Shown piece by piece: positions 35,001 through 38,567 of a stretch of 64,000 bases of DNA. Location of the stretch: assembly GCA_965262915.1 (NCBI GenBank), contig OZ253564.1, forward strand, positions 1,920,001 through 1,984,000. Reading direction: 5' to 3'. A program made the position numbers and the translations under genes. Each line of letters begins with the position of its first letter. Positions within the stretch are counted from its first letter, which is position 1. The notes below the pieces were generated by a model. That model was not told the origin of the DNA and did no database searches. It saw nothing but the letters and a program-made list of their open reading frames with translations. Origin of the DNA: Candidatus Spongiisociaceae bacterium (GTDB lineage: Bacteria; Actinomycetota; Acidimicrobiia; Spongiisociales; Spongiisociaceae).

Positions 35001-35480
35001 ATGAGCGGGAAGAAGCTGAACAGGGCCGCCATAGCCACGAACCGGCGCGCCCGGTACGACTACGTCTTCGAGGACGAGTACGAGGCGGGGATAGTCCTGA
35101 CCGGCTCGGAGGTGAAAAGTCTGAGGGCGGGCCAAGCGCAGCTCAAGGAGGCCTACGGTCTGGTCAGGGAGGGGGAGGTGTGGCTGGTCGGCGTGCATAT
35201 CGCCCCCTACAGGATGGCTCGGCACGGTGGCCACGAGCCCACCCGGGACCGGAAGCTGTTGCTGCACGCCGGCGAGATTGCCCGTATCTCCCGGCGGGTT
35301 CATGAGCGGGGCCGCACCCTGGTTCCGATCCGGATGTACTGGAAGGGTGGTCGTGCGAAGGTACTCCTGGGACTCGGCCGCGGCGCCCGCAAGTACGACA
35401 AGCGTCAGAAGATCAGGACCCGCGAGATGCGGAGGGAAGCCGAACAAGCCATCTCCGGCAAGGGCCGCCGTCCTCGCTGA
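35001..35480 (+). CDS. smpB: SsrA-binding protein
   Basis: NRRARYDY, EAGIVLTGSEVKSLR, RKLLLH, YDKR. Confidence 0.96.
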   Translation: MSGKKLNRAAIATNRRARYDYVFEDEYEAGIVLTGSEVKSLRAGQAQLKEAYGLVREGEVWLVGVHIAPYRMARHGGHEPTRDRKLLLHAGEIARISRRVHERGRTLVPIRMYWKGGRAKVLLGLGRGARKYDKRQKIRTREMRREAEQAISGKGRRPR

Positions 35481-35561: not shown

Positions 35562-35915
35562 GGGGGTGAACTGGTTTCGACGTCGATAGTCGAGGTGTCG
35601 GAAGCGAGCCGAGGTCGCCGGAGTCCTCGTTAAATAGCCGGTAACAACCATAAGTGCCAGACCAAACCTTGCACTGGCTGCCTAGATAGACAGCCCGTCC
35701 GCCCGGGGGGTTCCTGCCCCGTCGGTGCCGGGCGTCGCTTAGCAGGATGGATCTCCGGGGTTCCCGGACCGGAGTATCGAGACTGATTCGGGATTAGGGC
35801 GGCCGGTCGCTCGCCGATGGAGTCCGGTCTCCCGAATGCTCGCCGTCGGCTGCGCTCGGAGATGCCGGCGCTGAGGTATCGACGGACCGGGGTTCGATTC
35901 CCCGCACCTCCACCA
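35562..35915 (+). ncRNA. ssrA: tmRNA, tag peptide (A)ARPNLALAA*
   Basis: 5' GGGGGTG pairs with 3' CACCTCC-ACCA with G3-U70; T arm GGTTCGATTCC; tag ORF 35656-35685; TACACT -10 at 35541; follows smpB. Confidence 0.96.
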
Positions 35916-36204
35916 GTGACCTGCGGATATACTCCCAGGTCACAGGTTATTTGGAGGTTTGACTTATCATTTTGAGTATCGTCCGTCATACGCGTCTTGA
36001 TGAAGGCAGGCGCAGGCATCGTGAATGCGAATCGGCTGTTCGTAATCGTGCCAACAGCGCGACGGCGGATATTCTCTGGGAGCCATTGGCGACACGAAGG
36101 ACAGGTCAGGGCCGAAGACGGCCTTGGTCGGGTAGATACACCCCGACATCCGAAACCGGGTAACCATCACACTCTCCGGAAAGGCGGGGGTGCCTCTGTG
36201 TATG

Positions 36205-37264
36205 TCAAGCCGCCTTTGGATGGGGTCTGTTGACGTGGTGTCGGTGTCGTTCGTCGGCGAGCCTGATCCGCTAAACGCGCGATGCGATTTTGCGTTTGAG
36301 GCAGCGCATCGCTGCTTTGTGGGTCTTCCCTTCGTTGATCTTGCGGTCGCAGTATCGGCGGCCGGTGCTGTTGTGCATGCGGACCCGGGTGACAGCGATG
36401 AGATGCAGCGCCGAGGTCAGTTTCCGGTCACCGCTGCGTAACAGCCGGTGGACGGCCCGCTCGCCGGTGGAGACCTCTACGGGTGCGACACCGGCATAGC
36501 TAGCGAACGCGTCGGCGTTGGGGAACCCACAAGCCCCGGCCGCAGCGGCCTATGAGACGAACTGCCAGCACCGGCCCGATACCGTCAACGTCGAGCAGCC
36601 TGCTGGGGTAGTCGTGGAGCGCTTGGGTCATCTGCGCGGTTATCCCTTCCAGCCGGGTGTCAATACCTCGGATCTCGCGTACCAGGTCCCACCCGAGCGC
36701 CTTGCGGGTTGCTTCTGGTGGTGTCTTGGGACGGACTTTGCGTAGAGTATCCCCGCTGTGTTGGCCTTGAGCGCTTTGGGTGCGCCGCCCGGGATCAGGT
36801 CTCCGACACAGGGCGTGGGGCTGGTTTACGGACCGGACCCGCTGAGCCGCCAGGTTCGCCCGTCGCTTCTCCAACAGGGCGAACACCACAGTCTCGTCCT
36901 CCGCGACGACTACCGACGCGTCGCCTTGAAGCGCTGGAACATGGGCTGCCGCCGCAGCGGCGTCGATCACATCGTTCTTGCGTCGTCCGCCGCGGGACAG
37001 TTCACGCACCCGGGCGGTCGCGGCAGTCGACGCGTCGAGCACGGTCTCGTCTTGGGCGACCAGCCACTGCGCGAGATGACAGCCCAGGCCTTGGGCGTTT
37101 TCTACCGCCCAGCGTCGCTCACCGAACTGCCGTGCCCAGCGCAGCAACTGCCGATAACCGGCGACGCTGGCATCGACCCGCAACGACCCCACCGCCGTGT
37201 TCGTCGATGCGTCAACCGCCGTGGCGGTGTGGTTGGTCTTATGCGGATCAACCCCGATAATCAT
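36205..37264 (-). pseudogene. IS110 recombinase/transposase with frameshifts and an internal stop
   Basis: MIIGVDPHK, WAVEN, KNDVIDA (DEDD), DGIGPV, FASYAGVAPVEVSTG, HRL.RSGDRKL; several frame changes; TAG near 36271. Confidence 0.9.
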
Positions 37265-37294
37265 GCTCTTCCTTGGTCTCAGAGGAATGGGACA

Positions 37295-37480
37295 CCGTGG
37301 TCGGCATGCCGACATCGAGACCCACTACGGGGGAATCGCGCCTCTGTTGAGCCAGACCGCAGCCGGCCGTCAACTGGGAGGCCCACCCCGGGAGAGCCAA
37401 CCAAAAGGTGGTAGGCGATTCACGAGCCAACCCAGCCAAGGACCTACCAGACGCTACGACCCCACAGCCACAGCGACCAG
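37295..37480 (-). ncRNA. Putative IS110 bridge RNA
   Basis: Two stem-internal loop-hairpin modules; loop sequences match the flanking target (12/13) and the element's right end (9/10); ends approximate. Confidence 0.7.
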
Positions 37481-38132
37481 CCCACACATACAAAGTCGGC
37501 GATTCACTCCCGAGTTGATTCCACTCCCTCCGCAGAGATTCGACAGTTCTACCCGTTGGGTCGCCTCTTACGAAAGTCAGTTATCACTTCCAGTGAAACC
37601 GGTCAATCCTGGTTGGTCGATGGGGTGATCGCGTGGGCGTCAGGTGATAAGGCCGGGTGCTATGAATACAGGGAGCGCTCCGTGTTTCCCAGACGGCGGA
37701 ATCTGGCACTGGTGGAACGGTTGTGGTCGTCCCCGAACTCGCCGAGCGCCCGGCAGCCCGGGCCCCTACCCTGATCCCAGCCGCTTGGGGACTGTCACCC
37801 GCAACCCGACGATGGTTGTGACGGTCGGTACGTACGAGATCAGCCAGCAGCTTCGATCCGAGCGGGCTGGTCTTGCTCATCCCAGCCCGCGACGGTCCCG
37901 GTAGCGGAACACGGGACCTATGGGGTGCACGATTGGAGGCTGTGCCCTGGATACTCGGGACGTGAGCGTCGTCGGGTGTCGTGCAGTTCGTCTGCAGATC
38001 CGTTCGCCATCACCACCCGGTGACGCAGCCGGGGTACCGGGTTCTCGCGCCTGCCCGTGGCGCGATTTTGCCGAGTAAGCTCTGGGGTATCTAATATTGA
38101 TCGTTGGCTCGCCGAGCCTGGAGACGGGCCGA

Positions 38133-38567
38133 ATGTTCAGAACTGGCTTTGAAGACATACAGGTCGGAGACCTCCAGATGTCGTTGGGGCGGACGATTGA
38201 TTCGGCCGACCTTTTGGCCTACTCGATGCTCTCCGGCGATTGGGCTGCGCACCACATCGACGCCGAATACACCGCACGCACCCGGTTCCGGGGGCGCATC
38301 GCCCATGGAACTATCCCGCTCGCCGCCGTCTTCGGTCTTCTCCGCCTGCCACCCGACTCGACCTGGAAGCTCATCTATGGGTTGCGGAGCGTACGTTGGA
38401 TTGCGCCTGTTTGCATCGACGACACGATTCGCGGGAGGCTCGAGGTCAAAGGCAAGCACGATAGCAAGGGACCAACCGGAACGCTGGAACTGGTCCTTAC
38501 GGTCTTGAATCAACGGGATGTGGAAGTGATGGTGGCACCGCTCAAATCAGAGGTCGCTCGTGGCTGA
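38133..38567 (+). CDS. MaoC-like hotdog dehydratase
   Basis: FEDIQVG, SGDWAAHHID..RIAHG, GLRSVRWIAPV.IDDTI. Confidence 0.85.
   Translation: MFRTGFEDIQVGDLQMSLGRTIDSADLLAYSMLSGDWAAHHIDAEYTARTRFRGRIAHGTIPLAAVFGLLRLPPDSTWKLIYGLRSVRWIAPVCIDDTIRGRLEVKGKHDSKGPTGTLELVLTVLNQRDVEVMVAPLKSEVARG

What the first reader, a model, noticed from the sequence alone, without database searches (positions are those of the whole stretch)
36190..37507. IS110 element whose non-coding end carries bridge-RNA guides matching its own insertion site and donor end
Seen, minus strand: the left non-coding end folds into two stem/internal-loop/hairpin modules. Loop 1 top GTGAATCGCCTAC (37423-37411) matches the adjacent flank GTGAATCGCCGAC (37507-37495) at 12/13. 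Its bottom strand GGGGT (37389-37385) is complementary to the other flank ACCCC. Loop 2 top ACAGAGGCGC (37347-37338) matches the element's right end ACAGAGGCAC (36199-36190) at 9/10. The right donor guide is only partial (CGATGT vs expected CAAAGT). Established: IS110 recombinases use a bispecific bridge RNA with target and donor loops around a 2-nt core. Inferred: this is a readable natural programme with an AC core and an unusually long target match, although the recombinase is now broken.
Basis: partly seen in the sequence, partly recalled or inferred. Interest (0 to 1): 0.78.

Follow-up and report, generated by a model that had tools for sequence, protein, structure and literature searches.

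The report
Dead IS110 element with readable bridge RNA
This is a decayed copy of a known kind of RNA-guided jumping gene (IS110 family) whose guide RNA still spells out the site it landed in, which turns out to be the end of another jumping gene (an IS3-family element).

Summary
On the minus strand, 37497-36191 is an IS110-family element. Its left non-coding end encodes a bridge RNA. Its recombinase is split by three frameshifts.

Across 25 distinct relatives the RNA forms two stem/internal-loop/hairpin modules: 96.7% of cells paired, 18 of 35 pairs compensatory. The loop sequences change together with the flanks of each copy, with 0 of 20000 shuffles reaching the observed match.

Two details need correcting:
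- **Core.** The crossover dinucleotide is CC, not AC, so the element starts 3 nt further left and ends 1 nt further right. The true left-guide match is 10 of 10 (37423-37414 against 37507-37498).
- **Match length.** It is ordinary for the family, not unusually long.

New here: the target is the tip of the terminal inverted repeat of IS3-family elements. In 11 of 19 insertion sites the repeat is in exact register.

The window copy is a relic, with mutated guides as well as a broken gene. I file it as a new member of a known kind, of moderate interest.

The parts
37498..37507 (-). Left target plus core: the 10 nt that equal the left target guide. The last two (37499-37498) are the left copy of the CC core. 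37506-37498 is the outer 9 nt of an IS3-type terminal inverted repeat.
36191..37497 (-). Body of the IS110-family element, 1307 bp, excluding the right core copy.
   Evidence: The left end is conserved from GAC onward in 30 of 32 relatives aligned. The right end is conserved up to the base before the CC. Empty-site logic.
37446..37481 (-). 5' stem-loop of the non-coding end, predicted from the single sequence only.
   Evidence: Not part of the RNAalifold consensus.
37365..37444 (-). Target-binding module: outer stem 37444-37426 with 37382-37365, an internal loop, and an inner hairpin 37412-37396.
   Evidence: 13 of 17 outer-stem pairs show compensatory changes.
37414..37423 (-). Left target guide, on the 5' side of the internal loop. 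Identical to 37507-37498.
37384..37392 (-). The 3' side of the target loop. 37389-37388 pairs with the right target, 37387-37386 pairs with the core, and 37385-37384 is the handshake dinucleotide complementary to the last two bases of the element (36192-36191).
   Evidence: Handshake definition from PMC11208158.
37295..37362 (-). Donor-binding module: stem 37362-37351 with 37305-37295, enclosing the donor loop.
   Evidence: Includes a G-C to A-U compensatory pair (7 against 18 sequences).
37340..37347 (-). Left donor guide ACAGAGGC, identical to 36199-36192 at the right end.
37307..37313 (-). Right donor guide remnant (37313-37311, complementary to the element's first three bases 37497-37495), core-pairing GG (37310-37309) and donor-loop handshake dinucleotide (37308-37307). 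Two bases upstream, an A-to-T change weakens the guide relative to all relatives.
36271..37264 (-). DEDD recombinase pseudogene with three frameshifts.
36203..36208 (-). TTGACA in the right end, conserved in all 18 relatives' right ends found. It would sit 17 nt from the left-end TTGTAT-type hexamer in a circle junction built on the CC core.
   Evidence: The promoter role is inference only. The scan of the integrated copy found no promoter.
36189..36190 (-). Right copy of the CC core.
36130..36188 (-). Remainder of the interrupted IS3-type inverted repeat and its subterminal region. It is a relic: no IS3 genes follow.
   Evidence: ungapped collinearity with own-genome IS3-type ends. (no further similarity).

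Best explanation
The window holds a decayed IS110-group insertion sequence (minus strand, 37497-36191) that inserted by bridge-RNA-guided recombination into the tip of the terminal inverted repeat of an IS3-family element.

The 233-nt left end encodes a bridge RNA with two internal loops:
- **Loop 1 (target loop).** Its 5' side has the sequence of the 8 nt left of the crossover plus the CC core. Its 3' side is complementary to the core and the right flank. Two further bases are complementary to the element's own last two bases (a handshake guide).
- **Loop 2 (donor loop).** Its 5' side repeats the element's right end. Its 3' side is complementary to the core plus the element's first bases. One further base pairs with the last target base.

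Shown here: the anatomy, the covariation of guides with flanks, the crossover position, the target identity and the decay.

Inferred from IS621 work: a DEDD/Ser recombinase tetramer uses this RNA to synapse a circular donor junction with the target and exchange strands at the core. This copy can no longer move. Its recombinase has three frameshifts, two stem pairs are broken, the right donor guide is mutated, the left end carries an extra T, and no intact recombinase of the same subfamily exists in the genome.
For: **Family membership.** PF01548 (E 2e-17) and PF02371 (E 3.7e-13) are present. The nearest relative, L010, has an intact 351-aa ORF at 76% identity.

**RNA structure.** 25 distinct sequences, 35 pairs, 96.7% of cells paired, 18 compensatory pairs, 0 of 500 shuffles as good.

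**Guide covariation.**
- Left guide against left flank: 195 of 225 identities against a shuffled mean of 162.3 (sd 4.4); 0 of 20000 shuffles reach it.
- 26 of 40 guide cells that depart from consensus are matched by the flank.
- Right guide: 20 of 23 departing cells are matched.
- Target-loop handshake: 5 of 5 departing cells are matched.
- The reverse complement of the donor-loop 3' side equals the last target base, CC, and the element's first five bases in 23 of 26 rows. The exceptions are a wobble at the handshake base in L022 and one guide mismatch each in the window copy and L024.

**CC core.**
- The left-guide match ends exactly at CC.
- The invariant AAGTCGG in the donor loop is explained only if GAC belongs to the element.
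- Joining the flanks at CC gives a sequence collinear without gaps with own-genome IS3-type ends. Alignment score sum is 116, against 78 for the AC model, which needs a 4-nt insertion.
- In L031 the interrupted repeat has an uninterrupted inverted partner of the same length.

**Target identity.**
- 53 IS3-type end motifs occur in the own genome, 21 with at most 2 substitutions.
- HTH_Tnp_1 and/or rve genes lie behind the right flank in L012, L027, L032 and L038.
- 11 of 19 right flanks carry the repeat in exact register.
- The reconstructed L029 site equals the 28-nt IS6110 repeat printed in PMC5896891 Methods (passages read).
Against: - The single-sequence fold is no better than shuffles (z 0.05).
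- In the window copy, right-guide complementarity reaches only the core plus 2 nt, then a mismatch.
- Across the family the left donor guide matches 7-8 nt but is not Watson-Crick complementary at the core. There are only wobbles or mismatches there. This differs from the IS621 description and is unexplained.
- In 7 of 25 elements the last position of the left target guide does not match the second core base.
- No orthologous empty site for this exact locus was recovered, so the crossover position rests on paralogous and partner repeats.
- Rfam 15 reports no RNA family here.
- The integrated copy has no promoter-like site.
Confidence: 0.88

Rival explanations
1. One reading: same element and same bridge RNA, but with an AC core, boundaries at 37494 and 36190, and a 13-nt left guide.
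For: AC is also present at both junctions. The window copy matches at 12 of 13 over that span.
Against: - In every one of the 29 relatives whose loop 1 is present, guide positions 11-12 read TG where the flank reads GA. The window's A at 37412 breaks a pair that is G-C in 24 of 25.
- The empty site would be 4 nt longer than every IS3-type repeat seen.
- Only 4 of the 7 invariant bases on the donor-loop 3' side would be explained.
- The circle-junction spacing between TTGACA and the left-end hexamer would be 13 nt instead of 17.
Confidence: 0.07
2. The loop/flank identity is not RNA guidance. The left end carries a copy of the IS3 repeat tip as a protein-binding or hitch-hiking site, or the repeat arose by local duplication.
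For: The commonest guide has the same sequence as the IS3 repeat tip, so a DNA-level mimic is conceivable.
Against: - Sublineages inserted in unrelated, non-IS3 sites (L011, L015, L016, L021/L025, L022/L032, L037) have changed both sides of loop 1 to match their new flanks.
- The 3' side of the loop is the reverse complement, not a copy, of the right flank.
- The matching bases sit in the internal loops of a covariation-supported RNA structure.
Confidence: 0.03
3. The matches are chance in G+C-rich DNA.
For: Short pieces such as GGGGT/ACCCC or the 8-mer at the right end are individually weak.
Against: The 10-mer occurs only at the two predicted places in 64 kb (expected 0.30). Family-wide shuffles never reach the observed agreement (0 of 20000, twice).
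Confidence: 0.01

Closest known systems
IS621 (IS110 group) and its bridge RNA (Durrant et al. 2024, PMC11208160; Hiraizumi et al. 2024, PMC11208158; passages read)
   Same: - DEDD plus Tnp-domain recombinase.
- Long left end encoding an RNA with a target loop followed by a donor loop.
[quoted passage not shown] The 3' side is the reverse complement.
- 2-nt core.
- 2-nt handshake guides directly 3' of the right guides, pairing with the non-cognate DNA.
   Different: - Core is CC rather than CT.
- Host is an actinobacterium.
- The target is an IS3-type inverted repeat.
- The left donor guide lacks Watson-Crick pairing at the core across the clade.
- This copy is inactive.
- Sequence relatedness of the RNA to IS621 was not tested, because no model was available.
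ISEc21 (IS110 family; Siddiquee et al. 2024, PMC11187229, passage read)
   Same: [quoted passage not shown]
   Different: ISEc21 targets codons inside the IS3-family transposase gene. This clade targets the terminal inverted repeat.
IS4321/IS5075 (IS1111 group; cited in PMC11208160 and PMC11187229 reference lists; paper itself not read)
   Same: DEDD-transposase elements that insert in one orientation at a fixed position inside the terminal inverted repeats of another transposon family.
   Different: They belong to the IS1111 group, with the guide RNA downstream of the gene. Their targets are Tn21-family 38-bp repeats in proteobacteria.

Membership tests
IS110 family (IS110 group) | N-terminal DEDD (RuvC-like) transposase domain | tested here: met
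   PF01548, E 2e-17, residues 3-152 of window:36503-37264:-.
IS110 family (IS110 group) | C-terminal Tnp domain (Transposase_20) | tested here: met
   PF02371, E 3.7e-13, in window:36274-36549:-, in a different frame from the N-terminal domain.
IS110 family (IS110 group) | An intact, single open reading frame | tested here: not met
   Three frameshifts. This concerns activity, not ancestry. The relative L010 has an intact 351-aa ORF.
IS110 family (IS110 group) | Left non-coding end longer than the right end, with no long terminal inverted repeats | tested here: met
   Left end 233 nt (37497-37265) and right end 80 nt (36270-36191). Only a short subterminal inverted repeat is seen by eye.
Bridge RNA (bRNA / seekRNA) | Two stem / internal-loop / hairpin modules | tested here: met
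Bridge RNA (bRNA / seekRNA) | Loop 1 matches the target on both sides of a 2-nt core, and covaries with it | tested here: met
Bridge RNA (bRNA / seekRNA) | Loop 2 matches the donor (right end, core, left end) | tested here: inconclusive
   - The right donor guide matches the core plus 5-6 nt in 24 of 26 rows.
- The left donor guide matches 7-8 nt, but not the core.
- The donor is nearly invariant, so covariation is limited: position 8 matches in 14 of 19 rows.
Bridge RNA (bRNA / seekRNA) | Handshake dinucleotides 3' of the right guides that pair with the non-cognate DNA | tested here: met
   In the target loop, 5 of 5 departing cells are matched. In the donor loop, the first handshake base matches the last target base in 25 of 26 rows, with one wobble.
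Bridge RNA (bRNA / seekRNA) | The RNA is transcribed, binds the recombinase and is needed for recombination | not testable with these tools
   No RNA run is listed for this stretch. There is no assay.
Bridge RNA (bRNA / seekRNA) | Match to a curated RNA family | tested here: not met
   No Rfam 15 family matches 37265-37497 at E up to 1. Whether Rfam holds a bridge RNA model was not checked.

The most novel reading that the evidence does not exclude
The window copy is one relic of a widespread actinobacterial IS110 clade. It was found in Acidimicrobiia, Mycobacterium, Pseudonocardia, Actinomycetospora, Micromonospora and others.

The clade's bridge RNAs are natively programmed to cut the terminal inverted repeat of IS3-family elements after its ninth base, which splits and presumably disables that end. 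In other words, this is an RNA-guided insertion sequence that preys on another insertion-sequence family.

At least five sublineages have been naturally reprogrammed to unrelated targets by coordinated changes in the left guide, the right guide and the handshake bases. The clade also differs from IS621 in having no Watson-Crick pairing between the left donor guide and the core.
Probability: 0.6. Interest if true: 0.5.

Novelty: new member of a known kind. Interest (0 to 1): 0.4.

Why it matters
For this window it matters little. It is a dead IS110 relic in a junkyard of mobile DNA next to the tmRNA gene.

At family level there are three points:
- It is a clean natural example in which all four guides and both handshake dinucleotides of a bridge RNA can be read off and checked against flanks. 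That is enough to fix the crossover to the base.
- A whole actinobacterial clade is aimed at the inverted repeats of IS3-family elements. Targeting of other transposons is already known for ISEc21 and IS4321/IS5075, so this extends a known theme.
- Two full-text searches found no paper describing IS110 elements that target IS3-family terminal repeats. The supplementary target tables of PMC11208160 and PMC11187229 could not be opened and may already list it.

Tried and rejected
- **Orthologous empty site.** The left flank (window 37498-38200) was searched in 30 relatives plus the own genome. Only dispersed repeats matched (query 289-497). No syntenic site was found.
- **Public runs.** 20 rows hold the stretch and no RNA holder is listed. 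Contigs of 4 runs laid on 35900-37800 showed no joint that skips the element. Depth over 37308-37499 was about tenfold higher in two runs, which I read as related left ends from other copies.
- **Uninterrupted IS3 copy.** I looked for an uninterrupted copy of the very IS3 element interrupted in L029, in its own genome. Only 66% and 85% relatives turned up.
- **AC-model empty site.** I searched for it in the own genome and in the loci. There was no convincing hit.
- **Promoter scan.** The integrated copy has 0 promoter-like sites.
- **Rfam.** No family matched.
- **Pfam on ORFs behind the right flank.** No hit for L013, L029 or one L032 frame. L017 has a hydrolase and L014 an IS630-type transposase, so not every site has IS3 genes next to the repeat.
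- **Frankia IS paper** (PMC2770080, passages). Nothing relevant.

Full report
**1. Observation.**
- the 13-mer pair 37507-37495 / 37423-37411, agreeing at 12 of 13;
- GGGGT at 37389-37385;
- the 10-mer pair 37347-37338 / 36199-36190, agreeing at 9 of 10;
- the poor right donor guide.

The 10-mer GTGAATCGCC occurs twice in the 64 kb window, exactly at 37507-37498 and 37423-37414, against 0.30 expected.

The recombinase is broken. The DEDD domain (PF01548, E 2e-17) and the Tnp domain (PF02371, E 3.7e-13) lie in different frames. Comparison of the three frames places frame changes near 36809-36801, about 36737 and 36539-36525.

**2. Copies and relatives.**
The own genome is one 5.05-Mb contig. 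It holds this one full copy plus short relics of the same subfamily. A tblastn with the intact relative's protein finds no other copy above 33% identity, apart from those relics.

A scan of one genome per species returned 34 related loci, all but one from Actinomycetota. The best was an Acidimicrobiia genome at 76% protein identity with an intact 351-aa ORF.

I aligned the 270 nt upstream of the start codon for the window and 32 loci. L019 was dropped because it has too little upstream DNA. L043 was dropped as a distant 30% hit.

**3. The RNA.**
The single-sequence fold is no more stable than shuffles (z 0.05), so thermodynamics alone says nothing.

For the comparative test I used 25 distinct sequences. 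I left out four identical copies (L020, L029, L038, L040) and four truncated or internally deleted ones (L016, L025, L035, L036). On this set RNAalifold gives two modules, each a stem, an internal loop and a hairpin. For its 35 pairs:
- 96.7% of cells are standard pairs, against 23-50% when partners are slid by 1-3 columns;
- 18 pairs have compensatory changes;
- 0 of 500 shuffles reach the observed values.

In window coordinates the target module is 37444-37365 and the donor module 37362-37295. The window copy breaks two otherwise conserved pairs: A-C at 37412, and C-A in the donor stem.

**4. Guides covary with flanks.**
Durrant et al. (PMC11208160, passages read) state the rule. [quoted passage not shown] The 3' side is the reverse complement of the core plus the right half-site.

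I computed all comparisons from the stored alignment.

*Left guide.* I used 25 elements for the left guide. Eight aligned loci were left out:
- L036, whose loop 1 is deleted;
- four identical copies (L020, L029, L038, L040);
- L015, L025 and L035, which lack 10 nt of left flank.

Own-pair identities over positions 2-10 are 195 of 225, against a shuffled mean of 162.3 (sd 4.4). No shuffle in 20000 reaches this. Of the 40 guide cells that depart from the family consensus, the flank carries the same departing base in 26, keeps the consensus in 9, and has another base in 5.

*Right guide.* I used the 16 elements whose right end was found. Two rows were shifted by one base because their spacer is 1 nt longer. 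Of 23 departing cells, 20 are matched by the flank. Overall identities are 138 of 176, against 106.4 (sd 4.9), and 0 of 20000 shuffles reach this.

Sublineages in L011, L015, L016, L021/L025, L022/L032 and L037 sit in unrelated sites and have changed both sides of loop 1 accordingly.

**5. The core is CC, not AC.**
Both dinucleotides occur at both junctions, so the junctions alone do not decide. Five observations do.

(a) The left-guide match ends exactly at CC. The next two guide bases are TG in all 29 relatives with an intact loop 1, where the flank has GA.

(b) The 3' side of the donor loop carries an invariant AAGTCGG. Its reverse complement is CC plus the first five bases of the element, provided the element starts at GAC (37497). 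With an AC core only four of these bases are explained.

(c) Hiraizumi et al. (PMC11208158, passages read) define handshake guides as the two bases directly 3' of the right guides. These pair with the last two bases of the non-cognate left half-site after strand exchange. With a CC core this is what is seen:
- The two bases after the core-pairing GG in loop 1 follow the element's last two bases (5 of 5 departing cells).
- The base after the GG in loop 2 follows the last target base in 25 of 26 rows, with one wobble.

(d) Counting the C run shows how many Cs each partner contributes. The left junction has two Cs and the right junction has four. So the donor contributes two and the target four, and only a crossover at the first two target Cs reproduces both junctions.

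(e) The empty-site sequence. See section 6.

The element is therefore 37497-36191. The core copies are at 37499-37498 and 36190-36189.

**6. The target is the tip of an IS3-family inverted repeat.**
Right flanks of unrelated loci stay similar for about 25 nt, further than any guide reaches. Several lines show this is an IS3-type repeat:
- HTH_Tnp_1 and/or rve genes lie behind them in L012, L027 (opposite strand), L032 and L038.
- The own genome has 53 matches to the corresponding end motif at up to 4 substitutions, and 21 at up to 2.
- Joining the window's flanks at the CC core gives a sequence collinear without gaps for about 58 nt with own-genome ends such as C1:634793. The summed alignment score over seven ends is 116, against 78 for the AC model, which needs a 4-nt insertion.
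- In L031 the interrupted repeat faces an intact inverted partner of exactly the length the CC model predicts, differing at one base.
- In G001, uninterrupted IS3 ends (L046, L047) have the same register.
- 11 of 19 right flanks carry the repeat in exact register, and two more are off by one.
- The site reconstructed for L029 equals the 28-nt IS6110 repeat as printed in the Methods of PMC5896891 (passages read).

In the window only about 60 nt of the IS3 end remain, and no IS3 genes follow. So the target itself is a relic.

**7. Mechanism.**
*Shown here:*
- the anatomy of the element and its RNA;
- the covariation of all guide classes that vary;
- the crossover position;
- the orientation-specific insertion after base 9 of the repeat.

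*Inferred from IS621:*
- A circular donor forms with the ends abutted at CC.
- A recombinase tetramer holds both loops.
- The top strands are cut next to the core and exchanged, helped by the handshake bases.

A TTGACA conserved in all 18 relatives' right ends found would lie 17 nt from the left-end hexamer across such a junction. That fits the junction promoters reported for this family (PMC11187229, passage). The hexamer is a poor -10, and this point is inference.

Splitting the repeat after base 9 should disable that IS3 end. This was not tested.

**8. Decay of this copy.**
Relative to its nearest relatives the window copy has:
- three frameshifts;
- an extra T in the left end, which some related contigs in public runs lack;
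- two broken stem pairs;
- an A-to-T change in the right donor guide;
- right-target complementarity of only the core plus 2 nt.

**9. Against, and open.**
- No orthologous empty site was found in 30 relatives, or in the contigs of 4 runs.
- There is no expression evidence.
- Rfam is silent.
- The left donor guide does not pair canonically with the core anywhere in the clade. This departs from the IS621 description and is unexplained.

**10. Comparison and novelty.**
This is a member of the IS110 group with a bridge RNA of the IS621 type. Every defining feature that can be tested in sequence is met except an intact gene.

Targeting of other mobile elements is already known. ISEc21 inserts in IS3-family transposase codons (PMC11187229). 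IS4321/IS5075 insert in Tn21-family repeats (seen in reference lists only).

Two full-text searches found no description of IS110 elements aimed at IS3-family terminal repeats. The supplementary tables of the two 2024 papers, which I could not open, may already contain this target.

Verdict: a new member of a known kind. It needs correcting on the core, the boundaries and the length of the match.

Noticed in passing
window 35562-35915 (+), 35001-35480 (+): A tmRNA gene (Rfam RF00023, 148.6 bits) lies directly after an smpB-like ORF. The IS110 relic and the IS3-repeat relic lie within 300 nt downstream of it, a classic landing zone for mobile DNA. The 39 nt at 35916-35954 recur at G000:C1:341718-341755 (95%).
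   Followed up: partly
window 37704-37753 and 37755-37912: Two adjacent repeat segments have 10 or more copies each in the own genome and further copies in 5 of 7 genomes of the same genus. A sub-threshold Rfam hit to Ms_AS-4 (42.6 bits against a gathering score of 50) overlaps them. This is probably the end of another mobile element.
   Followed up: no
G000:C1:1460688-1460960, 2863789-2863855, 753575-753722, 797088-797310, 659984-660198: These are further relics of the same IS110 subfamily in the own genome. Two of them (1460, 2863) have lost exactly the 30 nt holding the left guide and inner hairpin, between two copies of a 9-nt direct repeat. Their left flanks again resemble the IS3 repeat tip.
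   Followed up: partly
own genome, whole: The genome is very rich in insertion sequences. There are 53 IS3-type end motifs. About 30 recombinase genes of other IS110 subfamilies, 28-33% identical to the L010 protein, are also present. None of them belongs to the window element's subfamily.
   Followed up: partly
L031 3664-3725: The target here is a head-to-head pair of IS3-type repeats with no gene between them. One of the pair is interrupted by the IS110 element and the other is intact. It could be a minimal repeat-only derivative or an IS3 circle-junction remnant.
   Followed up: partly
family alignment, loop 2 5' side (window 37339-37337 and homologous columns): Across the clade, the three bases after the 8-nt left donor guide are never Watson-Crick matches to the last donor base and the core. 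There are only G-T or U-G wobbles, or mismatches. Likewise the second core position of the left target guide is A, G or T in 7 of 25 elements. No explanation so far.
   Followed up: no
L048 (G000:C1:632600-634900): Behind an own-genome IS3-type end at C1:634793 lie an rve_3 fragment and a different IS110-family DEDD ORF (E 1e-34). This is another case of an IS110-family gene sitting inside IS3-type DNA.
   Followed up: no
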